Assembly: GCA_050250255.1 (NCBI GenBank)
Contig: JBFWOZ010000005.1
Coordinates: 32,001-96,000 of the forward strand
DNA from: Bdellovibrionales bacterium
GTDB taxonomy: Bacteria > Bdellovibrionota > Bdellovibrionia > Bdellovibrionales > DASUEL01
Length of the DNA stretch: 64,000 nt
Reading direction: 5' to 3'
The notes under the pieces were generated by a model, which was not told the origin of the DNA, did not search any database, and saw only the letters and a program-made list of their open reading frames with translations. Of the stretch, positions 6,948 to 36,435 are shown one piece after another. Every line of letters starts with the position of its first letter. Position 1 is the stretch's first letter. The position numbers and the translations under genes were made by a program.

Positions 6948-8138
6948 TTACTCTTTAATCTCTACAACTACGCCCGCACCTACAGTACGGCCACCTTCAC
7001 GGATGGCGAAGCGGAGTTCTTTTTCCATAGCGATCGGGGCGATCAACTCAACGTCGATCTCAGCACGGTCACCAGGCATCACCATTTCTGTTCCAGACTT
7101 CAAAGTTACAACACCGGTAACATCTGTAGTACGGAAGTAGAATTGAGGACGATATCCGTTAAAGAACGGAGTATGACGACCACCTTCTTCTTTTGTAAGA
7201 ATGTAGGCTTCAGCTCTGAATTTTTTGTGCGGGAATGTTGTTCCTGGCTTCGCAAGAACTTGACCACGCTCAACGTCCTCTTTTTTAGTACCACGAAGAA
7301 GAGCACCAATGTTCTCACCCGCTTGACCTTCATCAAGAAGCTTTCTGAACATTTCCACACCAGTTACAGTTGTTTTTGTTGTGGGCTTAATACCAACGAT
7401 TTCGATCTCTTCGTTCACCTTTACAATTCCACGCTCAATACGGCCAGTCACTACAGTACCGCGACCAGAAATTGAGAACACATCCTCGATTGGCATTAAG
7501 AACGGCTTATCAACCGCACGTGCTGGTTGAGGAATCGCTTCATCAACAGCAGCCATCAATTTTAGAATCGCTTTTTTTCCAATATCAGAATCTTCGCCTT
7601 CAAGAGCTTTTAAAGCAGATCCACGAACGATAGGGATTTTATCTCCAGGGAATTCGTATTTATTGAGAAGTTCACGAACTTCAAGTTCTACGAGGTCCAA
7701 AAGTTCTGGATCATCAACCATGTCGACTTTGTTCATGAATACAACGATCGCAGGAACACCCACTTGACGAGCAAGAAGGATGTGCTCACGAGTTTGTGGC
7801 ATTGGACCGTCAGCAGCAGAAACGACAAGAATAGCTCCGTCCATTTGAGCGGCACCGGTAATCATGTTCTTTACGTAATCGGCGTGTCCTGGGCAATCTA
7901 CGTGAGCGTAGTGACGCTTATCAGTTTCGTACTCAACGTGAGTTGTAGAAATTGTAATCCCGCGCTCTCGCTCTTCAGGAGCTTTATCAATCTGATCATA
8001 ATTTAAGGCCTGAGCTTTACCTGATTCAGCCAAAACTTTAGTGATGGCTGCCGTTAGAGACGTTTTACCATGATCCACGTGACCAATGGTGCCGATATTA
8101 CAATGGGGTTTATTCCTCACAAACTTCTCTTTAGACAT
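6948..8138 (-). CDS. tuf: Elongation factor Tu
   Basis: [28 protein letters not shown]-domain motifs; 396 aa. Confidence 0.99.
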
Positions 8139-13468: not shown

Positions 13469-15744
13469 GAAATATCACCCATATCTGAAAAGTCTTTATT
13501 ATTCTTAAATACCGCCGTTTGTACGACTGGTAATTCAAATATCATTTTTGTTCCCGCAGGGGAATTGGCATACGTGCGAATAAAACCATTATGATCTTCA
13601 ATAATACGTTTTACGATCGCTAACCCTAAGCCTGTACCTTGCTTTTTTGTACTAAAATAAGGCTCAAAAATACGATTACGATCTGCTTCCGCAATGCCAG
13701 GTCCGTTGTCGATCACTTCAACCTTCGCAATTTTAAGCACCTTATCATAATGCGTCCTGATATCAATAGTGCCATTGGGGATCTGCTCTAACGCAGCAAC
13801 CGAATTATCCAATAGATTCGTTAACACACGCTTAATCTGCTCAGGGTCAAAAGCAAATTCTGGAAGATCAGGATCGCTGTGGAATCGAAATTGAATTTCT
13901 TTATGTCCCGTTTGGAATAAGACGAGCGCTTCATCAATGATTTTGTTCAAATAACCAAAAACCGGCTTTGCCTGCGGAAGGCGCGCAAAGTTACTAAATT
14001 CATTCACGAGATTTTTAAGTTCATCCACCTGTTTAATAATTGTTTCAGTACAACTTGAAAATGCGGGATCCTGAATCGCCCCACCAAATTTCTTTTCTAA
14101 ACGTTGGGCTGAAAGCCGAATAGGTGTAAGGGGGTTCTTAATTTCATGGGCGATACGACGAGCTACCTCTCTCCAAGCCGCCGCTCTTTGCGCATTCACC
14201 ATGACAGAGAGGTCATCAAATACAAAAACAATACCTAGTTCTTCTCCCCCCTCATCCTTCAAAAGGGAAACTGTGAATTGCGTCAGCAAAACATCCTGGC
14301 CCACTTTGAGTTGCACTTCTTTCGTCTGACTTTGGGCACGACGAGTTTTCAGTTGAGTGATCATTTCCTCAATCACGGTGACCATCTCAGGCTTCAAAAG
14401 CTGCTGATAAGGTTTCCCGATATAATCCTCACGCCGAACGTGGAGTAAATGTTCTGCATGACTATTGATTGTCGTAATGTAGCCACGCGGATTTGCTGAC
14501 ACCACGCCCGTCGTAATATTTGCGAGCACGACCTCAATATAGCGATTGTGATCATCTAGCCGGTTGAGTGTTTCTTTTAACTCTAAGTTCGCTTTATTGA
14601 CCTGCTTTTCCGTTTGATCAAGGTTGAAGGTCATCTGGTTAAAGCTATTAATAAGTTGGGTGATCTCTTGGCTTCCCGAAGTAATTCCCACAGGTTGATA
14701 ATTCCCCGCGGAGATTCTTCTGGTCGCAATTCCTAGTAATTCCAAAGGGGTCGATAAGGTTTTGGCAAGGTGAAACCCAAACCAAGTCGCTGCTAACAAA
14801 ATGACTAATGTCATAAGAATCAAAATAATAAGGTAGATGGATTTAATCGGATATTCGAGCGGGTTAATATCTCGAAAATCATCGTAGGCCGCCGCAATAT
14901 CATCCATTTTCGAAATCAGGGACATCGGCACAAAGGAGGAAACCACCACGGCTCCTACCTGTTTTTTGTTCCACTCTAAAGGTACGATAACACGTACCAA
15001 GTTACCTTCTCCAAAATGGTGAATCATCGAAGCTTCGACCTTTTGTCCAATTCCTTTTTGGAGGAACTCCATGCTGACACGAGGAATTTCAGGAATGGCC
15101 TCGTCTTTTGAAATCACGACCGCTCTCTGACCGAAAATTCCTGGATAATATTCAACGGCATCAATTCGGTATCGATCTAGAAGTTGTTTGAGACTTTGAT
15201 TGATGTTTCGTGCCTTCGTTTCTTTGAGATTGCGCGCAATCTGGTGAGCGAAGTGATAGTTCTTTTTCTTCGCCGTTGTGTAGTAGGCGTTTGTGACTTC
15301 CAAGGAATCTTTTAAAACTCCGGCCATTTTCGCACTAAACCATTTATCGAAATTTGAATTAATATAAAATACCGAAATCAAGAACATGAGAACGGTAGGT
15401 ACAAAGCTAAACGCGACGAAAGCAGCAACGAGCTTTCCCTTAAGAGAACTTCCAATTAGCTTACTTTGTCTTTCAACGAAAATTTTAACGACGTTTCGAA
15501 AGATGAGAAATAAGAGAAATAGCAGAAGGGCAATGTTGAGGTTCACAAGCCCGAAAAAGAAAATCGAGTGAATGAACGGGAGCTTCTGACTCACGGAAGT
15601 CATGAAGTATCCCACCCACGTAAGGACTAAAAATAGAAGACCCAAGACCACGACGAGAACAAGTTCTCGTCGACGCTTTTTAGCCTCTTGCTGCTCAGCC
15701 TTGAGCCTTCCTTCATTGGAGATATCCATATTAGAGCTACCCAC
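13465..15744 (-). CDS. ntrY: NtrY-like sensor histidine kinase (TM, HAMP, PAS, HisKA, HATPase)
   Basis: AAWREVARRIAHEIKNPLTPIRLSAQRL (NtrY signature), GTGLGLAIV. Start may be ATG 15729. Confidence 0.88.
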   Translation of the reverse strand: MGSSNMDISNEGRLKAEQQEAKKRRRELVLVVVLGLLFLVLTWVGYFMTSVSQKLPFIHSIFFFGLVNLNIALLLFLLFLIFRNVVKIFVERQSKLIGSSLKGKLVAAFVAFSFVPTVLMFLISVFYINSNFDKWFSAKMAGVLKDSLEVTNAYYTTAKKKNYHFAHQIARNLKETKARNINQSLKQLLDRYRIDAVEYYPGIFGQRAVVISKDEAIPEIPRVSMEFLQKGIGQKVEASMIHHFGEGNLVRVIVPLEWNKKQVGAVVVSSFVPMSLISKMDDIAAAYDDFRDINPLEYPIKSIYLIILILMTLVILLAATWFGFHLAKTLSTPLELLGIATRRISAGNYQPVGITSGSQEITQLINSFNQMTFNLDQTEKQVNKANLELKETLNRLDDHNRYIEVVLANITTGVVSANPRGYITTINSHAEHLLHVRREDYIGKPYQQLLKPEMVTVIEEMITQLKTRRAQSQTKEVQLKVGQDVLLTQFTVSLLKDEGGEELGIVFVFDDLSVMVNAQRAAAWREVARRIAHEIKNPLTPIRLSAQRLEKKFGGAIQDPAFSSCTETIIKQVDELKNLVNEFSNFARLPQAKPVFGYLNKIIDEALVLFQTGHKEIQFRFHSDPDLPEFAFDPEQIKRVLTNLLDNSVAALEQIPNGTIDIRTHYDKVLKIAKVEVIDNGPGIAEADRNRIFEPYFSTKKQGTGLGLAIVKRIIEDHNGFIRTYANSPAGTKMIFELPVVQTAVFKNNKDFSDMGDIS

Positions 15745-27591: not shown

Positions 27592-27807
27592 ATGGCCAAA
27601 CAGGGTATATATCTTGATCCTATTCATCCCACTGATTTTCTTAAATTAAACATCACTTTTTATTGTGAACAGTGCTCTCACTACGATCCCGTAAACGATA
27701 AATGTACAATGGGATATAATCCCCAAAATCACAAAAAAGAAGTACAGATGAAAACTTATGAAATCAGCGGTCGCGTCGCTTTTTGCCGGCATATGGAAAT
27801 TGATTAA
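27592..27807 (+). CDS. Small 4-Cys hypothetical protein
   Basis: CEQC-x9-C...C spacing; next gene starts 3 nt after its stop. Confidence 0.65.
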   Translation: MAKQGIYLDPIHPTDFLKLNITFYCEQCSHYDPVNDKCTMGYNPQNHKKEVQMKTYEISGRVAFCRHMEID

Positions 27808-27809
27808 AA

Positions 27810-28721
27810 ATGTTGGAGTGGGTTCTTCCTTTTTCTTTGTTGATTTTTCTTCTTCTTGTTGTGGGTTTTTATACGCAAAAGAAAACATTAGCACCAAGCT
27901 CCTCAACACCCCAACAGCCTACCGACACTACAAGTTTTTTAGAAATTAAAGATTTTAAAGTTTTCTATCAGCAAGCAGGAAGTGGCCCAGATGTTCTCCT
28001 TCTTCATGGAATTGGTGCCTCCTCCTATACGTGGAGACTCCTGCTCCCGCTCTTAAGCCGTCACTACCGTGTGACCGCCGTAGATTTGCCAGGCTTTGGT
28101 AAATCCACAAAGAATGTGTCGGTCTCTTATGGTTTAGACGCTCAAGTCGAACGGTTGATTGAAATCATGGATCGCTTAAGGATCTCTCAAGCTCACCTTG
28201 TTGGAAGCTCTATGGGCGGAGCCATTGCTCTCTGGCTCGCGAGAAAGTATCCTGAGCGCGTCCTTCATCTTGCCCTGATTTCGCCTGCCGCCTCTCAGGG
28301 ACTTGTGCATTATGATTTTTTTAAGCACGCTCGCATCGGGACCTGGGTCACACCTTTCGTCGGCCCTCGAATTGGTCGGCGTATTCTCAATTACGTTTAC
28401 CATGACCGAAATCTCATTACCGCCGAGACTGTCGAAAAGTATATGGAACCATATATGACAGATCCCGCGAGTGTTGTGACTTTCATCAAGGCGGTCGAAG
28501 CGCTTCGTGACGCAAGACTCCCCATCGATCTTTCACAAATTCAATGCAAAGTGGCCCTGTTGTATGGAGAACAAGATCTTGTGATTCGAAAAAAACACAT
28601 GGAAAAAGTTCGCTCCTCTTTTGTAGCAGCTCCACAATATTTTTCGCACCCAACCCTTGGACATCACCCCATGGAAGAAGATCCACAGTGGGTTTTTGAG
28701 TGTCTGCGCACATTTTTTTAG
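27810..28721 (+). CDS. Membrane-anchored alpha/beta-fold hydrolase
   Basis: N-terminal TM; LLHGIG, DLPGFGKS, GSSMGG, GEQD, GHHP catalytic-triad motifs. Confidence 0.9.
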   Translation: MLEWVLPFSLLIFLLLVVGFYTQKKTLAPSSSTPQQPTDTTSFLEIKDFKVFYQQAGSGPDVLLLHGIGASSYTWRLLLPLLSRHYRVTAVDLPGFGKSTKNVSVSYGLDAQVERLIEIMDRLRISQAHLVGSSMGGAIALWLARKYPERVLHLALISPAASQGLVHYDFFKHARIGTWVTPFVGPRIGRRILNYVYHDRNLITAETVEKYMEPYMTDPASVVTFIKAVEALRDARLPIDLSQIQCKVALLYGEQDLVIRKKHMEKVRSSFVAAPQYFSHPTLGHHPMEEDPQWVFECLRTFF

Positions 28722-28895
28722 TCTTTTCTCTCCCAGTCCCTTGGCGAGTTCGTCAAAAAAAATGAATGATCGTCCAGTTTCTCTCCTCGTTCATCGTCGA
28801 GGAAAACAGGGTTTTTCGTCGAGAAATAATCACTAAGGTCTGACAGACTCGACGAGGCCTTCGACTAAATCGTACAGACCTGGGCCTTTATACCG

Positions 28896-28922
28896 TCAAG
28901 AATCCAACTCTCGTCCCGAGAA
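28896..28922 (+). promoter_or_regulatory. Putative sigma28 (FliA) promoter of flagellin
   Basis: TCAA-N15-CCCGAGAA versus consensus TAAA-N15-GCCGATAA. Confidence 0.6.
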
Positions 28923-28995
28923 GTTTGTTGTAGGTTGAATTGCTCGAGACAAGTTTTCTCTCAAGCACTTCACAAAAGAAAAATCTCATCGTTGA

Positions 28996-29177
28996 AAGGA
29001 GGATCATCAAGGATGACGAGAACAAAGTAGTAGAACGTTGACTGAATGTTTACCGCAAGAATGCGGATGTACTCAAACTAAGGCTAGGATGCCGACCCAA
29101 TAAAGGGTTTTTTCAAGGAAGGGACTTTTATATGAAATTAACTAACTAATTTAACGTTTTTTAAAACGGAGGATAAA
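28996..29177 (+). promoter_or_regulatory. Flagellin 5' leader with repeated GGA-hexaloop hairpins (CsrA-type sites)
   Basis: c-AAGGAT-g (29009), CCGC-AAGAAT-GCGG (29053), GGC-TAGGAT-GCC (29082), TTTC-AAGGAA-GGGA (29111), ACGGAGG at the SD. Confidence 0.55.
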
Positions 29178-30011
29178 ATGGGAATGCGAGTAACAACAAA
29201 CGTAAGTGCGATCAATGCACAACGTAATTTGGTGAATAGCCAAAATCAAATCCAGAACTCTTTCGCTCAATTGTCGAGCGGAAGTCGTATCAATAAGTCT
29301 GCAGATGATGCTGCAGGTTTAGCAATCTCTGATGGCCTACAAGCTCAAATCAGATCAGCTAGACAAGCTAACAGAAACGCTAACGACGGTATCTCTATGA
29401 TTCAAGTCGCAGAGGGCGGTCTTTCTGAAATCAGCAACATCGTTACACGATTAAGAGAACTTGGTATCCAAGCTTCTTCTGATACAGTGGGCGATCGTGA
29501 ACGTTCTTTCATCGATAAAGAGGTTCAAGCGTTGAAGTCAGAAGTTCAGCGTATCGCAAGCGTAACAACATGGGGCACAACAAAGCTTTTGGATGGAACT
29601 ACTCCAAACTTTGATTTCCAAGTTGGTATCTTTAACAACGATTTCGAAGATAGAATCACATTTGCTGCTAGCGAAAACGTTGCTACAGTTGACTCTCTAG
29701 GTATCTCAGGACTCGATTACAACAATAAAGAGGGCGCTCAAATGGCACTTCAATCTCTTGATGAATCGATCCTAAAAGTGAACCAGATGCGCTCTAACTT
29801 CGGTGCTTTACAAAACCGATTGCAGTCTACATCTGCTAACTTAGGAGTTGCTGAAGAGAATTTATCAGCTGCTAACAGCCGTATCCGTGATACAGACGTA
29901 GCTCGCGCTTCTTCTGAACTCACTCGTAACAACATCTTGTTACAAGCTGGTACTGCAACTCTTGCTCAAGCCAACCAAGTTCCAAGCCTAGCTTTGAAAT
30001 TGATTGGTTAA
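29178..30011 (+). CDS. fliC: Flagellin (short, 277 aa)
   Basis: LSSGSRINKSADDAAGLAIS, NANDGISMIQVAEGGL, RSNFGALQNRL, SRIRDTD; almost no variable domain. Confidence 0.97.
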   Translation: MGMRVTTNVSAINAQRNLVNSQNQIQNSFAQLSSGSRINKSADDAAGLAISDGLQAQIRSARQANRNANDGISMIQVAEGGLSEISNIVTRLRELGIQASSDTVGDRERSFIDKEVQALKSEVQRIASVTTWGTTKLLDGTTPNFDFQVGIFNNDFEDRITFAASENVATVDSLGISGLDYNNKEGAQMALQSLDESILKVNQMRSNFGALQNRLQSTSANLGVAEENLSAANSRIRDTDVARASSELTRNNILLQAGTATLAQANQVPSLALKLIG

Positions 30012-30032
30012 TTAATAAATAGTCAAAGATTG

Positions 30033-30063
30033 TGGCGTAAGTGGAAACACTTACGCCATTTTT
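30033..30063 (+). terminator. Intrinsic terminator of flagellin
   Basis: TGGCGTAAGTG-GAAA-CACTTACGCCA-TTTTT. Confidence 0.9.
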
Positions 30064-30118
30064 GTCCCGTCCTTCCGTTTTACTCGAATACCTCCAGTTG
30101 ATCGGAGGTATTCACTTC
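30060..30118 (+). repeat. 59-bp direct repeat, copy 1
   Basis: 56/59 identical to 31084-31142; internal hairpin GAATACCTCC-N8-GGAGGTATTC. Confidence 0.95.
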
Positions 30119-30372
30119 TTGAGATATGAGCTGCTCAAACTCGCAACAATTTTTTCGTCAAAAACTTCGACAGCCCCAACCGTGCCCCTTCCAGTCACCT
30201 AAAAATACTTAAAATTGAGGTCTGCGGCACTCCTTTACCCTCAGTGCCTATAAAATCATTAGAGATCTGTGGAATACTTCTTGTAGTTAGAATCACCATA
30301 TCAGTTCGATATTGCCTGGAAATAGTTTCCAACAAATTTTCGAACGGAATCGGATCAACCACGGGATCACTT

Positions 30373-31047
30373 ATGCAAACTATTGGGCTAAAAATAATGA
30401 GTATTATAGCGATGATTTTACTTCTTGAAGATTCTGGGTGGGCTCAGTATACACCGCAGACCTACGCTACCGCGGCCCACACCCGAGGACGATTAATCAC
30501 CGCATCCGCACATGACCACCAAATTCTTTTACTGGAACATAGTACCGCAGAACTCTCTAAGTTTAAGCAGTATGCTTTTTTTGGAATACGAGATATCGAG
30601 AACGGTCTGCGAAGACAAGTCTTCGGCTTTAGAAAAGTAGGCGCTAATCTAGTTGAATCTGAATTGATGACAGAGCTCACTCGCGCATCTCCTCATGAAT
30701 CTAGTTTTGATGGCTACTTTTTTTCTGAAGGCGGAAAAAAAGGTGAACCCGTTCTTATGAAGTCTCTGGGAGACCCTGACTTTAGCGGAAGCTATTCCAT
30801 CTTTTTCTCCAATCGCAAAATCGCACGCAACGAAACCGGAGATGCTCGTCGGTACGAATCTCTAGATCTTCTCCTTGCAGAAGGACGTGACGGCAGACAC
30901 CATCCTATCTACTTGGATCCCAAATCACTTACACCTATCAATTCAGACTCAAACATTGAAAAACAGAGCTTTTACTCATGGCTGAGAAGGCAAAAACTCT
31001 CAGGACCTAAAGCCACTAAAGGTAAATGTGCTATTCTTCATTACTGA
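30373..31047 (+). CDS. Exported hypothetical protein
   Basis: Likely ATG 30373 (track starts at 30244); hydrophobic N-terminus ending SGWA|Q; ends GKCAILHY. Confidence 0.6.
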   Translation: MQTIGLKIMSIIAMILLLEDSGWAQYTPQTYATAAHTRGRLITASAHDHQILLLEHSTAELSKFKQYAFFGIRDIENGLRRQVFGFRKVGANLVESELMTELTRASPHESSFDGYFFSEGGKKGEPVLMKSLGDPDFSGSYSIFFSNRKIARNETGDARRYESLDLLLAEGRDGRHHPIYLDPKSLTPINSDSNIEKQSFYSWLRRQKLSGPKATKGKCAILHY

Positions 31048-31083
31048 CTCAGCTAAAAAATGTTTTGCGTAACAACAAACGTA

Positions 31084-31142
31084 TTTTGTCCTGTCCTTCC
31101 GTTTTACTCGAATGCCTCCAGATGATCGGAGGTATTCACTTC
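31084..31142 (+). repeat. 59-bp direct repeat, copy 2
   Basis: See copy 1; the single stem substitution (A>G) keeps a G-U pair. Confidence 0.95.
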
Positions 31143-31172
31143 AACGATGCCTCTCTAGCCTCCACTATTGTT

Positions 31173-31188
31173 TGGCTCACATTTTGCA
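31173..31188 (+). promoter_or_regulatory. Putative sigma54 (-24/-12) promoter
   Basis: TGGCTCACATTTTGCA: GG-N10-GC with TTGCA; places the start site at about ATG 31201. Confidence 0.5.
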
Positions 31189-31200
31189 ATTTCTAACAGA

Positions 31201-32037
31201 ATGCGCTGGCTCTTACTTACTTTTTTATATTTATCAATAGCTCAAGCTCATGCAACTCCACTCTCTTGTGGTGGCCTAAGCGGAGAAGACTATAGTCGTT
31301 TTTTTCGTAACAGTTCTACATTAGCTACAAAAAAAACTTATATTCCCAATATGTTAGAAGTTGAAGCCTATTTTAAGGAATGGCTTCTCAGCGAAAATAC
31401 AAGCCAAACCTTTAAAGAGATGTTTTTTCAACTCCATCACCTGGCTGCAAATGGAAGCTCCGGCCGTTCCACCTACCGCCCACCTAAATCCCCTCCCAAT
31501 ATGAGGATAGGAGAAAAAAGGCAAGTCGCTCCTGTTCATTTAATTTTTGATCAAACGGTCATTAAAGAAATTCTTAAGTTAACAAGTCTAGAATGGAGAA
31601 CTGATAGAGACGCCATCTATAGAATAAAATTGAGAGAGCCCCCTCCTGTCCTCCCCACTTTTTTTGCTCGTGGCGAAAAGCCCAATCGTGTCGGCCAAAT
31701 TGAAATGGTTCATGCGATGGATCATGAATTAGAAGCCATTCACTCCAAAATGTCACATTTGCTTTCGGAAATTCGTTTAGATCTACAGCAGAAAAAACCA
31801 ACGCGCACTGTGCTTGAAAAACTCGCTTACTACTACCAACTTGGTTGTTTCGCACACACCTTTGAACGTATTAATAATTCTATATTAATGGCTCAGGTGA
31901 ATGTTGTGCTCTCCTTACTTAGTATAACGCCGATCCCCCATGGTAATATGGATATGATTATGCGGTCAGTAGATACCGATAAGGCGACGGAATATTTTTT
32001 TCAGCAAATAGAGCATGTCAACGGACCCATAAAATAA
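31201..32037 (+). CDS. Exported protein with a divergent Fic/Fido domain
   Basis: Signal peptide ...AQAHA|T; LHHLAANG...GEKR, then LAYYYQLGCFAHTFERINNSILMAQVN aligning to HPFxxGNGR. Confidence 0.6.
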   Translation: MRWLLLTFLYLSIAQAHATPLSCGGLSGEDYSRFFRNSSTLATKKTYIPNMLEVEAYFKEWLLSENTSQTFKEMFFQLHHLAANGSSGRSTYRPPKSPPNMRIGEKRQVAPVHLIFDQTVIKEILKLTSLEWRTDRDAIYRIKLREPPPVLPTFFARGEKPNRVGQIEMVHAMDHELEAIHSKMSHLLSEIRLDLQQKKPTRTVLEKLAYYYQLGCFAHTFERINNSILMAQVNVVLSLLSITPIPHGNMDMIMRSVDTDKATEYFFQQIEHVNGPIK

Positions 32038-32340
32038 AAAAGCCTACTGTTTCCAATCCACTCTTTCAATAAATTACTTCATACAAGAAAAACATAAATA
32101 AATTCTCAAAATGATTGACGTGAAATTTTTGTCTTTATTATGTCGGAAGCTTGAGCAATGGCACAATAAATTTTAAATTTATGTTTTAGGAAAATAAATT
32201 CAGCACAGGCGAATAGCGCCCTCAATATTAAACTTTAAAAGCTGGTTCTCCTCCCGTATTTTCATCACCAAAAAAACTCATGCTACAACTTCTTCAGCGA
32301 AGCTGAATCGTTTTTAGTTTCCAAATTTAAAGGAGCGTAG

Positions 32341-33345
32341 ATGAAAAATATGAAAGATGCAGAACTTTTAGTTCTAATTAAATCTAAAGTCCAAGCAGAG
32401 AGAAACCTGACGCTAGAAATCATTGATATTTTGCAGGAGATTCAAAGTCGTAGGCTTCATTTGCAGCGAGGCTATTCTTCTCTTCATGAGTTTTGCGTAA
32501 AAGAACTAAAATATTCTGATGGAGCAGCTTACCGAAGAATTAAGGCAATGAAACTTGTGGAAGAAATGCCTGAGGCTATTAAGTCTATTGAGAGCGGAAG
32601 TCTTACTTTGACAACTGCAAGCCAACTACAAAATGTTTTTGAATCAAAAGCGAAAACCGCTAGACCGCTTACTCAAAATGAAAAAGCTAAACTCTTCCGC
32701 CAGATACAAAACCAATCCCGCCAAGAGGTAGAACGAACGATTGCAAAGGTCTGCCCTGAAATCATTAAGCGCGATGAGAAAGTGAGGATGCTTAATAATA
32801 TGCAAGTGAAAGTGGAACTCATTCTCGATGAGAAGCTTTACGCGAAGCTCGAAAGACTTAAAAATCTCACATCCCATAGAAACAAAAACTTCGTTGAGTT
32901 AATTGAGCATTTAGCAGACCAAGAATTAAAACGCATTGATCCTGAAGAAAAGGCGAAAATAAAAACCTCAAGCTCAAAGAAATCTTCTAATGCTGCAGCT
33001 CATAAAAATAGCGGCAATGGTTCATTCAAAACAGCTTCTCCAACGAAGCTTGATTTAACCCACGTGAAGACGAAAAACTCACGCTACATTCCTTCAGCAA
33101 TCAGACATGCTGCTTGGATGAATAGTAAAGGTCGCTGCACATTTATCGATCCACTTACGAAAAGAAGATGTGATTCGAACCATCGACTTCAATTGGAGCA
33201 TATTAAGCCCTATGCAATTGGTGGAGAAAACTCCGTCGACAACTTAAGAATACTTTGTGCGAATCACAACGAACTTACTGCGATTCGATTTTATGGGAAA
33301 AATAAAATTGAAAGTTATCAGCACCAAGGATCTGGTTGCTTCTAA
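32341..33345 (+). CDS. HNH endonuclease with DUF222-like N-terminus
   Basis: GYSSLHEFCVKELKYSDGAAYRRI N-terminal block; SRYIP...RC...C...LEHIKPYAIGGENSVDNLRILCANHN HNH/zinc motif; AAGGAG SD. Confidence 0.9.
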   Translation: MKNMKDAELLVLIKSKVQAERNLTLEIIDILQEIQSRRLHLQRGYSSLHEFCVKELKYSDGAAYRRIKAMKLVEEMPEAIKSIESGSLTLTTASQLQNVFESKAKTARPLTQNEKAKLFRQIQNQSRQEVERTIAKVCPEIIKRDEKVRMLNNMQVKVELILDEKLYAKLERLKNLTSHRNKNFVELIEHLADQELKRIDPEEKAKIKTSSSKKSSNAAAHKNSGNGSFKTASPTKLDLTHVKTKNSRYIPSAIRHAAWMNSKGRCTFIDPLTKRRCDSNHRLQLEHIKPYAIGGENSVDNLRILCANHNELTAIRFYGKNKIESYQHQGSGCF

Positions 33346-33410
33346 ACTCGATCCTTACATTGGCACCTCCAAAGAAGCTTAATTTTCGAAATTTCAAAGA
33401 AGTCTAATGA

Positions 33411-33490
33411 AACTGCCAAACTTTAGCCCGCGAAGCGGGTGAGGGCCGGAAGCCCGAATTTGGCAGTTGACCAACCATGGATGGGCGGCC
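33411..33490. repeat. Y-shaped palindromic (REP-like) element
   Basis: AACTGCCAAA/TTTGGCAGTT stem enclosing GCCCGC-GAA-GCGGGT and GGGC-CGGAA-GCCC, then CC-ATGGAT-GG. Confidence 0.7.
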
Positions 33491-33563
33491 TCTCACAAGA
33501 TAACTTGCCAATAAAAAAGCCCACTGTTTCCAGCAGGCTTCTTCATTTTCAATAAGAAATATC

Positions 33564-35345
33564 TTAATGAGTTGCGAGCTGAGAAACCGCTACACCGCTA
33601 TTCATCCAGTCTTGAACCAGCTTATAGTTTGCAGAGATCGCTTTTTGCTCGTAACGAAGAGGAACCTCAAACGGATTCACTCTTTGAGATGCGAACGTGC
33701 TCTTCAGCTTCATCAGTTCATCATCCATATATCCAGGAACCTTCTTCCATGTGCCACGAACCGCTTCATTCAGCTTCATGTAAGTCATGCCTTCGTAACC
33801 CAATTCTGTGAATGATCTTCCGCGGAAAACCATGTCCCAAAATAGAGATGGTAGATAAATGGAAATTCCGATATTGAACGCGCTTCCTAACCACTTACCA
33901 AAATTCAAGTTTTGTGGCATCACGATACGTACCGCATCGGTGAATACTTCAAGAACCACACGGTTAAAGTGTTTATACCAACCTACGTTTTCGTAATGAA
34001 GCCAAGAAGGTTGCTTTGTGAGCCAATTTCTTGGAATCGCTAAAGAGACAATCCCCTTCTTCTTTTCATCTTTGAAGACCGTTGCGTGACGGTTGTCTGA
34101 CCAAACCATAGCTGTGTATTTCTTCTTTTGAAGCCATTCTAAGTTTTGGTTACGTGCCTTTTCTTCTTTTTCCGTGACGATTCTTCGCTTTTCCACGCCG
34201 TCTGTCACGTCATCCGTTTCGATCATTTTATTGAGATAAAGCATCGTGATGGAAGTGTCGACGAAACTTCCTGGATCTTCCCACGGAATATTGATCGGAT
34301 ATTCTTCTCTCACGTAAGCTTCAAGAAGTTCTTGAAGAGCGTTCTCATGAGCATTCTGACGATTTTTTAAGCCGTTCGCAATACGAGATACGAAAAGAGA
34401 AATAAAAGAACCATATTTACCGAGAATAGATTCAAGGATCGCGGCGTTACGCTCCAAGTTACTGAGTCCATACTTATACGCTAAGATGTCGTACGGATTA
34501 TAGTAGTTGAGCACCCAACCCGGAAGTTGAGGAGCTTGCTCCCCTAGCACGTTCATTGGCGCCCATTCTAAATTAAATTCTTGAGCGTCTTCGCTCCAAT
34601 TCATTTTGAATTGAGCAATGAAATCCTGCAAACCTTCGCGCTTCAGATCCTTCTTTAAAACCAATTTCGAAAACTCCGCCATAATGGGATAAAGCTTGTT
34701 TTCTTTTTCGGAAGATATATAAAGATCGGCCATTGTAAAAGAAGTGGGCTTAAATCCCGAACGTCCTTTTCCGCCAGCAAGACGAGCTCCAACGTTTTTA
34801 GCGAGCCATTCGTCACGGAACTCTAATTTCGCAAATTCTTTTTTGCCACGAGCGATATCGCTTTCTGCAGAAGGAGTAAGCCATTTCGCTTCTTCCTTCG
34901 CAAAATCCGTATAGAACTGTTGATAAGTGGCGTCGGTTTCGTCACTTGGATCAAAATACATTCCATGACGAAGCACGTTTTCATTTTTCAACACGTCTTC
35001 TGGTGTCTCGTTCATTTTACGGTACTTATTCCAAAGACTTCTCAGAGACCATCCTCCGATTCCTATAGAACCAAGAAGCATGCTCTTCCACGTAAGAGGG
35101 TCCATCGTGTAATCAAACGCGACGACTGGGTAACCATCTGGATCAAATAAAAATCCAAAACGATCCGCCACCTTGTAAAGCTTGAACTCCCCAGAAGGAG
35201 CAACAGCTTTTTTCTGCATTTCCTGCAGCGTAGGCGTTTTTTTGTATTTCGGGTTCTCCATAATTTCCTTCCAACTTCGTGGAAGGCCGGCATTGGCTGT
35301 AGATACCAGCGCAATACCAATAAAAAAGGCAAGAAAGCGACTCAT
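33564..35345 (-). CDS. Exported hypothetical protein (593 aa)
   Basis: Signal peptide ...TANA|G, AAGGAGG SD, long ORF; no recognised domain. Confidence 0.85.
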   Translation of the reverse strand: MSRFLAFFIGIALVSTANAGLPRSWKEIMENPKYKKTPTLQEMQKKAVAPSGEFKLYKVADRFGFLFDPDGYPVVAFDYTMDPLTWKSMLLGSIGIGGWSLRSLWNKYRKMNETPEDVLKNENVLRHGMYFDPSDETDATYQQFYTDFAKEEAKWLTPSAESDIARGKKEFAKLEFRDEWLAKNVGARLAGGKGRSGFKPTSFTMADLYISSEKENKLYPIMAEFSKLVLKKDLKREGLQDFIAQFKMNWSEDAQEFNLEWAPMNVLGEQAPQLPGWVLNYYNPYDILAYKYGLSNLERNAAILESILGKYGSFISLFVSRIANGLKNRQNAHENALQELLEAYVREEYPINIPWEDPGSFVDTSITMLYLNKMIETDDVTDGVEKRRIVTEKEEKARNQNLEWLQKKKYTAMVWSDNRHATVFKDEKKKGIVSLAIPRNWLTKQPSWLHYENVGWYKHFNRVVLEVFTDAVRIVMPQNLNFGKWLGSAFNIGISIYLPSLFWDMVFRGRSFTELGYEGMTYMKLNEAVRGTWKKVPGYMDDELMKLKSTFASQRVNPFEVPLRYEQKAISANYKLVQDWMNSGVAVSQLATH

Positions 35346-35590
35346 TGTTCCTCCTTGAATGATGAGCGTTCAATTTCTAATCTAATCCTTTTTTATTGAT
35401 GCCACTATGCCATACCTGTCGATTTAGAAATTCTGAACCTACGTCGCAAGACTTTAAACACGTACAGTCGTGTGCGATTTTCTCTCGATAAAATGTCTAT
35501 TTCCTCTCGTAAAAAATCTGATTCTTTTTTTGAGACGCAAAGATCTTCTTTTTTGATTATTTTTTATTCAATGTTTTCAAATACTTAGCC

Positions 35591-35618
35591 TAAAGGTGCG
35601 GAGACCTTAGTCCGAAAA
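35591..35618 (+). promoter_or_regulatory. Putative sigma28-type promoter
   Basis: TAAA-N16-TCCGAAAA upstream of the 35656 lipoprotein gene. Confidence 0.45.
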
Positions 35619-35655
35619 GTATTTATCTCTAGATGAAAAGAGAAAAGGAGTTCCA

Positions 35656-36435
35656 ATGAAAACGCTCAACTTACATGGATTGTTATTGTTTTGCATCCTA
35701 AGCGTCGCGTGTTCACCGAAGAGTTTTACACCGGTGAGTACTTTGGCCTGTGAAGGTTGCCAAGGCTCTAACGATTCGAACAAAGAAGAAACCCCACCCA
35801 TCACTTTCGCCGAGCAAGACTTAGAGGGAGCCGCAGACGGTGGTGCCAACGACAAAGCCATTCTTATTCACTTCAACAAAACCACAAAGATGTTCCAGAT
35901 TAAAATTCCTATCGCGGGGCTGAACCTCAGCATCGATACGACCATTCCTCAGATTCCCGATAGCCATGTGGAAGTGGTGATGGAAGACATCAGTGGAAAC
36001 GGTGTGTTTATTCCCGTACTTCTTGTGGAAATTCCAGGCGTGTATGTTCTTGGTAAACTCGGTTTCGACCCGGGCCAATTAGGCCTCGATCCCACTCGCC
36101 TTCCTAACGGAGACCTCATCCCTCCTATGCCAGGCGGCGAAGGGCCTGCCATTTCCTTTTTGATACCGAACATCAATCACGTGGTTCGCCTCTATCTTGG
36201 GATCAATGTGATTGGGGTATTTATAGAAGCAGGCTTTGTTCCAACGCTCCCCGTGGTGACCCAGATCACCTTCCCGATCAAGAACAAGTCCCGTAATGAA
36301 GTGATAGGTTATACCTCTTTGATTTCTAAGAAAGTCCCTTTTAACGGCGGATTCTTCGTCTCCCTCGTTATGCCTCGACAAATTGCCGGTGATCTCGACG
36401 ATTTCTTAGCGAAATTTATCACGACCGCAAATTGA
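35656..36435 (+). CDS. Hypothetical lipoprotein
   Basis: Lipobox LSVA-C, AAGGAG SD; LPNGDLIPPMPGGEGP segment. Confidence 0.8.
   Translation: MKTLNLHGLLLFCILSVACSPKSFTPVSTLACEGCQGSNDSNKEETPPITFAEQDLEGAADGGANDKAILIHFNKTTKMFQIKIPIAGLNLSIDTTIPQIPDSHVEVVMEDISGNGVFIPVLLVEIPGVYVLGKLGFDPGQLGLDPTRLPNGDLIPPMPGGEGPAISFLIPNINHVVRLYLGINVIGVFIEAGFVPTLPVVTQITFPIKNKSRNEVIGYTSLISKKVPFNGGFFVSLVMPRQIAGDLDDFLAKFITTAN

What the first reader, a model, noticed from the sequence alone, without database searches (positions are those of the whole stretch)
30060..32037. Two unrelated exported genes each preceded by the same 59-bp hairpin element: a cassette-like array behind the flagellin terminator
Seen: 30060-30118 and 31084-31142 are 56/59 identical. 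Each carries a 10-bp stem (GAATRCCTCC/GGAGGTATTC) and begins right at the T-tract of a terminator or terminator-like hairpin. Each is followed by a different signal-peptide gene with no mutual similarity, so this is not a gene duplication. Inference: the repeat is either a recombination/insertion site through which variable secreted (predation effector-like) genes accumulate, or a small structured RNA/REP-like unit that travels with such genes. It lacks attC core sites, so it would not be a classical integron.
Basis: partly seen in the sequence, partly recalled or inferred. Interest (0 to 1): 0.7.

Follow-up and report, generated by a model that had tools for sequence, protein, structure and literature searches.

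The report
Collapsed flagellin duplicate, possible regulatory RNA
The 59-base repeat is real but occurs only twice in this predatory bacterium's genome; it is the stretch just behind the flagellin gene, likely copied once by a partial gene duplication that then collapsed, and it is predicted to pair with the flagellin's ribosome-binding site, so it may be a small regulatory RNA rather than a gene-cassette site.

Summary
The repeat (30060-30118 / 31084-31142, 56 of 59 identical) is real. It has exactly two copies in a 99%-complete Bdellovibrionales-type genome and was not found in relatives, phages, plasmids or metagenomes. There is no integron integrase and no attC core, so a cassette array is unsupported. 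First, the 15 bases just before copy 2 are identical to flagellin codons 5-9, occur nowhere else in the genome, and end inside the only 8-base word shared by the flagellin gene and its terminator. That points to a partial flagellin-locus duplicate that collapsed by microhomology deletion; 3 of 49 other syntenic loci carry tandem flagellins. Second, the repeat's + strand linker is complementary (12 of 13) to the flagellin ribosome-binding site. The same seed word is enriched behind flagellin genes across the order (11 of 139 versus 6 of 349 controls), as expected of a FlaX-like 3'-end RNA; broader pairing tests were weak or null. Gene B has an AvrB/Fido-like fold; gene A is an orphan. No RNA data or close strains exist. 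Verdict: likely a private duplication scar, with a testable lead to flagellin riboregulation.

The parts
29178..30011 (+). Flagellin gene (277 aa), one of six in the genome; the orthologue that sits behind clpB in the order
   Evidence: Pfam Flagellin_N/C; paralogues; synteny
29162..29173 (+). Flagellin ribosome-binding region; predicted pairing target of the repeat's linker
   Evidence: 12 of 13 complementarity with one bulge
29190..29204 (+). Flagellin codons 5-9, source of the 15-nt echo
   Evidence: The exact 15-mer occurs only here and at 31069 in the genome
29201..29208 (+). 8-bp word repeated at 30036-30043; inferred deletion microhomology
   Evidence: Only shared word of 7 nt or more between gene plus leader (1112 nt) and the 48 nt behind the stop
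30032..30059 (+). Terminator-like hairpin behind flagellin (hairpin 1)
   Evidence: 12-bp stem plus T-run
30060..30118 (+). Repeat copy 1: T-run, pyrimidine linker with anti-RBS seed (30070-30082), 10-bp hairpin 2 (30086-30113)
30373..31047 (+). Gene A, orphan 224-aa protein (databases start it at 30412), possible signal peptide
   Evidence: No homologue or family; model without alignment pLDDT 33; codon use coding-like
31069..31083 (+). 15-nt echo identical to flagellin codons 5-9, directly abutting repeat copy 2
   Evidence: longest such echo among 127 flagellin copies, next longest 12
31084..31142 (+). Repeat copy 2 (56 of 59 identical); the stem change keeps a G-U pair on the + strand only
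31172..31188 (+). Sigma-54-like promoter just before gene B (leaderless start inferred)
   Evidence: 11 of 14 match to a recalled consensus
31201..32037 (+). Gene B, 278-aa AvrB/Fido-fold protein with a signal-peptide-like N-terminus
   Evidence: 166 remote homologues; invariant H-x-F-x-R-x-N-x-S; model pLDDT 84; top Foldseek hits AvrB, TM 0.55-0.61
32033..32055 (.). 23-nt copy of half of the gene D terminator, left of the HNH gene
   Evidence: 22 of 23 identical to 33510-33532
32341..33345 (+). HNH endonuclease gene of a family with 21 matching places in the genome
   Evidence: Pfam HNH; tblastn
33510..33532 (.). Gene D terminator half (original copy)
33564..35345 (-). Gene D, 593 aa, found only here and in the one same-family genome; right border of the variable interval
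   Evidence: 2 of 301 genomes; G001 order is flagellin, short gap, D

Best explanation
The repeat is the stretch directly behind the flagellin terminator, present a second time 1 kb downstream fused to 15 bases of the flagellin's own start, and it is likely the remnant of a partial duplication of the flagellin locus that collapsed by deletion. Inferred order of events: (1) the segment from the flagellin 5' end to 30118 was copied behind gene A, giving flagellin - gene - flagellin copy; (2) the copy lost about 835 bp by slippage between the 8-bp words at 29201 and 30036; (3) the leftover 20-nt hairpin and the sequence upstream of codon 5 were lost, or the latter was never copied. What survives is hairpin-bounded and carries a seed predicted to block the flagellin ribosome-binding site, so copy 1 may be a FlaX-like 3'-end regulatory RNA made by read-through of hairpin 1, and copy 2 a spare. 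The sequence relations are shown; the events and the RNA function are inferred.
For: The echo is exact, unique in the genome and abuts copy 2; expected matches of a fixed 15-mer within the flagellin gene: 2.6e-6. It ends inside the single longest word shared by gene and terminator zone; an 8-mer as such is ordinary, but landing in it has roughly 1-2% chance (my estimate, 8-20 of 1112 positions). 3 of 49 other syntenic loci carry tandem flagellins, two with an intervening gene. Among 110 flagellin copies with 1.2 kb or more downstream, the only other 3'-flank repeats over 30 nt outside lysine-rich genes (38 and 40 nt) belong to tandem flagellin pairs. Only two copies, no IntI, no attC, no reverse transcriptase. 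Seed: the regions of copy 2 and copy 1 rank 4 and 9 of 335 3' regions for predicted binding to the flagellin start; TCCGTT lies behind 11 of 139 kin-thinned flagellin 3' regions (reverse complement 1) versus 6 of 349 controls (reverse complement 10), p 0.0017.
Against: At least three events are needed and no intermediate or close strain is available. The similarity left of the echo is not significant (372 of 1200 random flanks score as well). The HNH gene next door is also flanked by a direct repeat, and these two are the only such cases among 714 genes tested, which fits an insertion-with-duplication process at terminators. Seed tests were chosen after seeing the sequence (8 words tested). 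The linker alone ranks the flagellin only 37 of 2884 start regions. Order-wide exact-complement and own-versus-other tests were null (7.5 vs 7.3 vs 7.2 nt; mean z -0.16). Most syntenic orthologues have no such seed (mean percentile 0.47; 7 of 48 in the top 5%). The seed lies behind a strong hairpin with a 5-T run, so it needs read-through.
Confidence: 0.55

Rival explanations
1. Gene A arrived as a small circle or linear piece that recombined into the 59-nt stretch, duplicating it like attL/attR. The HNH gene did the same in the gene D terminator, so terminators here are insertion targets. The echo came along from a donor's flagellin locus or from repair synthesis.
For: Both direct-repeat-flanked genes found among 714 lie in this 3.5-kb interval, and both repeats contain a terminator T/A-run. 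The interval differs in the same-family genome.
Against: No integrase or transposase lies between the repeats, and no RNA gene was found at the site. None of 15 other HNH copies has a flanking repeat over 13 nt. It does not explain why the echo ends in the shared 8-mer. No joint skipping gene A was seen in three runs, with patchy cover in two.
Confidence: 0.17
2. Both copies are kept by selection as functional + strand anti-flagellin small RNAs (U-rich 5' end, seed, 3' hairpin). Copy 2 is made from the gene A transcript and ties flagellin translation to expression of the accessory gene.
For: The conserved block matches small-RNA anatomy at both ends. All three differences are compatible with the + strand fold and predicted pairing. 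Net binding is -23.9 and -20.2 kcal/mol, better than all 400 random start regions and within the top 0.5% and 3% of 200 GGAGG-containing ones. A hairpin-seed-hairpin layout with a covarying seed exists behind another flagellin class.
Against: 95% identity is also what a recent neutral copy gives, and half of all transitions are wobble-compatible by chance. There is no conservation outside this genome. Pyrimidine-rich linkers pair with many ribosome-binding sites.
Confidence: 0.12
3. A minus-strand RNA over copy 2 is an antisense regulator of flagellin: it carries three GGA motifs for CsrA and then the perfect complement of codons 5-9.
For: The flagellin is the best of 2880 start regions for this strand (-27.9 kcal/mol; true by construction of the 15-mer). 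CsrA and FliW genes are present. A T6 run follows on the minus strand.
Against: The stem change in copy 2 breaks the minus-strand hairpin (-12.5 vs -18.3 kcal/mol). No promoter was called for it. The minus strand of copy 1 shows no binding (-4.1). The echo is unique among 127 flagellin copies.
Confidence: 0.06
4. A cassette array: the repeat is the recombination site of a non-integron system that accumulates secreted effector-like genes.
For: Two unrelated accessory genes each follow a copy, and gene B is AvrB/Fido-like and patchy (13 of 351 genomes).
Against: Only two sites exist; there is no IntI over cut-off and no attC core. No repeat flanks gene B relatives (0 of 9 loci). The element is absent from all other collections searched.
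Confidence: 0.05
5. The repeat is a shared upstream control element (enhancer for a sigma-54 promoter, or a Shine-Dalgarno-hiding leader hairpin) copied from gene B to gene A.
For: A sigma-54-like site lies 30 nt behind copy 2. The hairpin's 3' arm is a GGAGG ribosome-binding word, and a 19-of-20 look-alike hides the start of another secreted gene on contig C10.
Against: No sigma-54 site scoring 10 or more precedes gene A. No in-register start codon follows the GGAGG in either copy. The genome has 264 hairpins of this geometry, so the C10 match may be chance. It does not explain the echo.
Confidence: 0.05

Closest known systems
FlaX of Vibrio cholerae (PMC11879080; passages read)
   Same: Sits at the 3' end of a flagellin gene and pairs with flagellin ribosome-binding regions (there shown by experiment, here only predicted).
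   Different: FlaX is about 265 nt, conserved in vibrios, released by RNase E, bound by ProQ and mainly represses a paralogue. This element is 59 nt, private to one genome, lies behind a terminator-like hairpin, fits its own flagellin best, is duplicated, and has no transcript evidence.
Duplication followed by loss (SNAP model; PMC7055797 and PMC9016547, search listing and start of abstract only) and deletion at short direct repeats (recalled)
   Same: A duplicated segment decays by deletions and leaves short direct repeats and new gene neighbours.
   Different: Here the unit is about 1 kb, no intermediate is available, and no selection is shown.
Integron attC arrays and CALINs (features recalled)
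   Same: Short hairpin-forming repeats alternating with unrelated accessory genes.
   Different: No R''/R' cores, the palindrome covers under half of the repeat, two copies only, no IntI.
REP and MITE palindromes (recalled; other such families exist in this genome)
   Same: Intergenic hairpin behind a gene's 3' end.
   Different: Two adjacent copies only, not dispersed, no terminal inverted repeats.
AvrB / Fido (Fic) superfamily, for gene B
   Same: Fold matches AvrB (TM 0.55-0.61), then FICD and AnkX; Atlas neighbours carry Pfam AvrB_AvrC or Fic.
   Different: 10-11% identity; motif H-x-F-x-R-x-N-x-S instead of the recalled Fic motif; Sec-type N-terminus; activity unknown.

Membership tests
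Integron cassette array | Integron integrase IntI in the genome | tested here: not met
   TIGR02249 best 65 bits against a cut-off of 265
Integron cassette array | attC core sites RYYYAAC and GTTRRRY | tested here: not met
   None on either strand in 30000-30200 or 31040-31230
Integron cassette array | Several sites alternating with variable cassettes | tested here: not met
   Two copies only
REP/MITE repeat | Many dispersed copies | tested here: not met
   Next-best ungapped match 34 of 59; blastn nothing else under E 0.1
Site-specific integrated element (attL/attR) | Recombinase gene in the element | tested here: not met
   Only gene A lies between the repeats and it has no family match
Site-specific integrated element (attL/attR) | Repeat is the end of a tRNA, tmRNA or other known RNA | tested here: not met
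   Rfam: three chance-level hits in 28000-36000, all far below gathering score
Site-specific integrated element (attL/attR) | Empty site with a single repeat in a relative | tested here: inconclusive
   No close relative; G001 lacks the repeat altogether; no joint in three runs
Flagellin 3'-end sRNA (FlaX-like) | Encoded at the 3' end of a flagellin gene, same strand | tested here: met
   Copy 1 starts 48 nt after the stop, but behind hairpin 1
Flagellin 3'-end sRNA (FlaX-like) | Single-stranded seed complementary to a flagellin ribosome-binding site | tested here: met
   Predicted only: linker unpaired, 12 of 13 complement, rank 9 and 4 of 335
Flagellin 3'-end sRNA (FlaX-like) | Conserved in relatives | tested here: inconclusive
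   The element is not conserved; the seed word is enriched; broader tests weak or null
Flagellin 3'-end sRNA (FlaX-like) | Discrete processed RNA that represses its target | not testable with these tools
   No RNA holder listed
CsrB/RsmZ-type CsrA sponge | Many GGA motifs in hairpin loops | tested here: not met
   Three GGA in the minus-strand linker, none in the loop of the stable hairpin
Type I toxin-antitoxin locus | Hidden Shine-Dalgarno followed by a shared small hydrophobic toxin ORF | tested here: not met
   Hairpin hides GGAGG, but identity ends 5 nt later and no common ORF follows
AvrB/Fido superfamily (gene B) | Fido helical core | tested here: met
   Foldseek E 1e-4, probability 1.00, TM 0.55-0.61 to AvrB
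AvrB/Fido superfamily (gene B) | Canonical Fic catalytic motif (recalled) | tested here: not met
   His and Phe kept, the rest differs; Pfam Fic in 3 of 16 members, not in gene B itself

The most novel reading that the evidence does not exclude
Bdellovibrionales control their several flagellins with undescribed 3'-end RNAs built as hairpin - seed - hairpin, whose seeds block flagellin start regions. The repeat is this lineage's version, and a collapsed flagellin duplicate has moved a second working copy into the transcript of an accessory secreted gene, so that a gene duplication left behind only its regulatory RNA.
Probability: 0.22. Interest if true: 0.65.

Novelty: new variant of a known kind. 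Interest (0 to 1): 0.38.

Why it matters
As a scar it is a local curiosity that shows how accessory genes come to sit behind a flagellin. The lead with wider value is the seed. Predatory Bdellovibrio build one filament from six flagellins laid down in blocks (PMC2791853, passages). My searches (open-access library only) found no paper on flagellin 3'-end RNAs in this group. The seed word also lies behind flagellin genes of named Bdellovibrio genomes (L028, L029, L031), so the idea can be tested in cultured strains.

Tried and rejected
DNA searches for more copies: own genome; 60 relatives, best outside hit E 0.008 on the terminator part only; 400 phylum genomes, three short hits at E 0.004-0.013, not examined further; phages none; plasmids two 21-nt chance hits; exact 20-nt linker in JGI metagenomes none; hairpin pattern in viral contigs one locus, not examined. 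Gene D found no relative in JGI metagenomes. Sequencing runs: three DNA runs of one study, no RNA holder listed; laying them showed no joint that skips gene A, with 21 and 11 of 30 bins covered in the two non-source runs; a closer look at the interval is missing. Gene A: no homologue, no Atlas hit, unusable model. Rfam nothing. A PDB sequence search with the gene B profile found nothing. Extension of the echo to the flagellin start codon looked good by eye but is not significant. General pairing of flagellin 3' regions with their own start: null; the enrichment (8 of 48 syntenic, 9 of 14 in the 45-55% class) shrank under the reciprocal control (7 of 48 and 0 of 14), so I do not claim an order-wide rule. 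Reverse-transcriptase-templated origin: no RT gene. HNH family as a general maker of target duplications: 1 of 16 copies. A shared minus-strand reading frame across the repeat: not supported. Earlier-findings look-ups by place, words and sequence gave nothing on this locus. No paper joined AvrB, Fido and Bdellovibrio, and none described cassette arrays in the group.

Full report
Setting. The window is contig C5 of a 3.09-Mb genome, 99% complete. Its closest flagellins are from Bdellovibrionales genomes. It has six flagellin genes and CsrA and FliW genes. Across the order the gene order clpB - small Cys-rich gene - (hydrolase) - flagellin - variable interval - lipoprotein / NtrC-like / Xer is conserved. 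Here the interval holds genes A, B, an HNH gene and gene D. Of 50 distinct syntenic loci including this one, A, B and HNH were seen only here and D only in the one same-family genome G001; many of those loci reach only 1.5 kb or less downstream, so this is a lower bound. In G001 the flagellin terminator is followed by about 570 nt of unrelated sequence and then D, with no repeat.

Observation. Confirmed: 56 of 59 identical, 1024 bp apart, 10-bp stem. Copy 1 starts in the T-run of a 12-bp hairpin; copy 2 follows only a weak one. The locus is reproduced without differences by an independent assembly of a run that may be its source.

Copy number. There are two copies in the genome and none in 60 relatives, 400 phylum genomes, phages, plasmids or JGI metagenomes. 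There is no IntI over cut-off, no attC core, no Rfam family and no reverse transcriptase. I gave 9 of the 13 other loci of gene B relatives to the repeat finder (those of about 3 kb or more); none has a comparable repeat. A cassette array or dispersed REP is therefore unsupported.

The genes. B is a real protein with 166 remote homologues, a confident model (pLDDT 84) and an AvrB/Fido fold. It is patchy in the order (13 of 351 genomes) and has a sigma-54-like site just upstream. A is an orphan with coding-like codon use. Signal peptides were judged by eye.

First new fact: the flagellin echo. The 15 nt directly before copy 2 (31069-31083) equal flagellin codons 5-9 (29190-29204), and this word occurs at only these two places. 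The expected number of matches in the flagellin gene is 2.6e-6; empirically 179 of 25,345 intergenic 15-mers have a copy within 2.5 kb, a count that includes true repeats. It is the longest such echo among 127 flagellin copies, so it is private. The echo ends four bases into an 8-bp word (29201-29208) that recurs in the terminator arm (30036-30043), the only shared word of 7 nt or more. Having such a word is ordinary (median 7-8 nt over 122 copies); ending in it is the informative part. Slippage between these words in a duplicate would join codons 5-9 to the terminator, and loss of the remaining 20-nt hairpin gives the observed junction. Deletion at short direct repeats is recalled knowledge. 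Precedent: 3 of 49 other syntenic loci have tandem flagellins, two with a gene in between, and shared 38-40 nt 3' flanks elsewhere belong to tandem pairs. Against: several events are needed, the left extension is not significant, and the neighbouring HNH gene is also bounded by a 23-nt duplicate of a terminator half. These are the only 2 of 714 genes with such flanks, which keeps insertion-with-duplication alive.

Second new fact: the seed. On the + strand the unpaired linker (30070-30082) is complementary, 12 of 13 with one bulge, to the flagellin ribosome-binding region (29162-29173). It fits this flagellin best of the six but ranks only 37 of 2884 start regions. With flanks, predicted net binding is -23.9 (copy 1 from 30044), -17.1 (copy 1 with hairpin 1 intact) and -20.2 kcal/mol (copy 2): better than 400 of 400, 99.2% and 400 of 400 random start regions, and in the top 0.5-3% of 200 GGAGG-containing ones. 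Reciprocally the two regions rank 9 and 4 of 335 3' regions. Across the order the seed word TCCGTT lies within 90 nt behind 11 of 139 kin-thinned flagellin genes (this one included; reverse complement 1) against 6 of 349 control genes (reverse complement 10), p 0.0017, one of 8 words tested after the fact. In a different flagellin class, 8 of 28 genes carry a seed complementary to their own start codon region, usually between two hairpins. It covaries with codon 2 in all 8 (6 C-G, 2 T-A) and is absent from 143 other rows; these genes include kin. Against: exact-complement and own-versus-other tests were null, and only 7 of 48 syntenic and 6 of 32 other close flagellins fall in the top 5%, with mean percentiles 0.47 and 0.41. 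The one informative difference between the copies keeps the hairpin on the + strand and breaks it on the minus strand, which is weak support for the + strand.

Mechanism. Shown: two copies, echo, microhomology, complementarity, variable interval. Inferred: duplication and collapse (0.55). Predicted, untested: read-through of hairpin 1 yields an RNA whose seed covers the flagellin Shine-Dalgarno and damps translation, as FlaX does in Vibrio (PMC11879080, passages). I put function of copy 1 at about 0.3 and of copy 2 at about 0.15. B. bacteriovorus CsrA can repress a flagellin leader (PMC13443453, passages), so control at this site is plausible. It works like a flagellin 3'-end sRNA in layout and predicted pairing, but membership is unproven because no transcript could be tested.

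Verdict. A real but private feature, not a cassette system. Interest 0.38: ordinary as a scar, with a concrete lead to flagellin riboregulation in predatory bacteria that can be tested in cultured strains. No supplements were consulted.

Noticed in passing
window 32033-33532: The HNH gene and its flanks sit between two 23-nt copies of half of the gene D terminator; the left copy supplies gene B's stop codon. None of 15 other HNH copies has such a repeat.
   Followed up: partly
window 32341-33345 and 20 other places in G000: A multi-copy HNH family (21 tblastn places). Most copies have an AT-rich upstream region with a TTGAC word about 200-260 nt before the start, and many are followed by GGATG-containing palindromes. 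Looks like a selfish element; unexplained.
   Followed up: partly
L059, L072, L083, L084, L094, L097, L204, L207 (flagellin 3' regions): A seed complementary to the gene's own start codon region, usually between two hairpins, covaries with codon 2 in 8 of 8 carriers (8 of 28 genes of that class; 0 of 143 other rows). Best evidence for flagellin 3'-end riboregulation in the order.
   Followed up: partly
G000 contig C1, behind the flagellin at 6986-7819: A hairpin loop in the 3' region is a perfect 9-nt complement of the Shine-Dalgarno of this window's flagellin and its own, and 7-8 nt of two more paralogues.
   Followed up: no
L131:2540-2551 (G001): The 12 nt right after the orthologous flagellin's stop are the exact complement of its own start region.
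   Followed up: partly
window 28897-29177: About 250-nt flagellin leader with a sigma-28-like TCAAG-N15-CCGA site shared with G001 and several GGA hairpins resembling CsrA sites (motif labels recalled).
   Followed up: no
G000 contig C10:25756-25783: A hairpin with 19 of 20 arm positions matching the repeat's stem hides the Shine-Dalgarno of a small secreted-looking gene; may be chance.
   Followed up: partly
G000 contig C45:13162-13227 and 15532-15597: Another private direct repeat (66 nt, 86%) brackets a secreted-looking gene and a gene pair in an island with nucleotidyltransferase-like genes (labels recalled).
   Followed up: no
window 27592-27807: A 71-aa Cys-rich gene with no named family is kept between clpB and this flagellin in most syntenic loci.
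   Followed up: no
window 33564-35345: Gene D (593 aa, no family) is found only in this genome and the one same-family genome, 2 of 301.
   Followed up: partly
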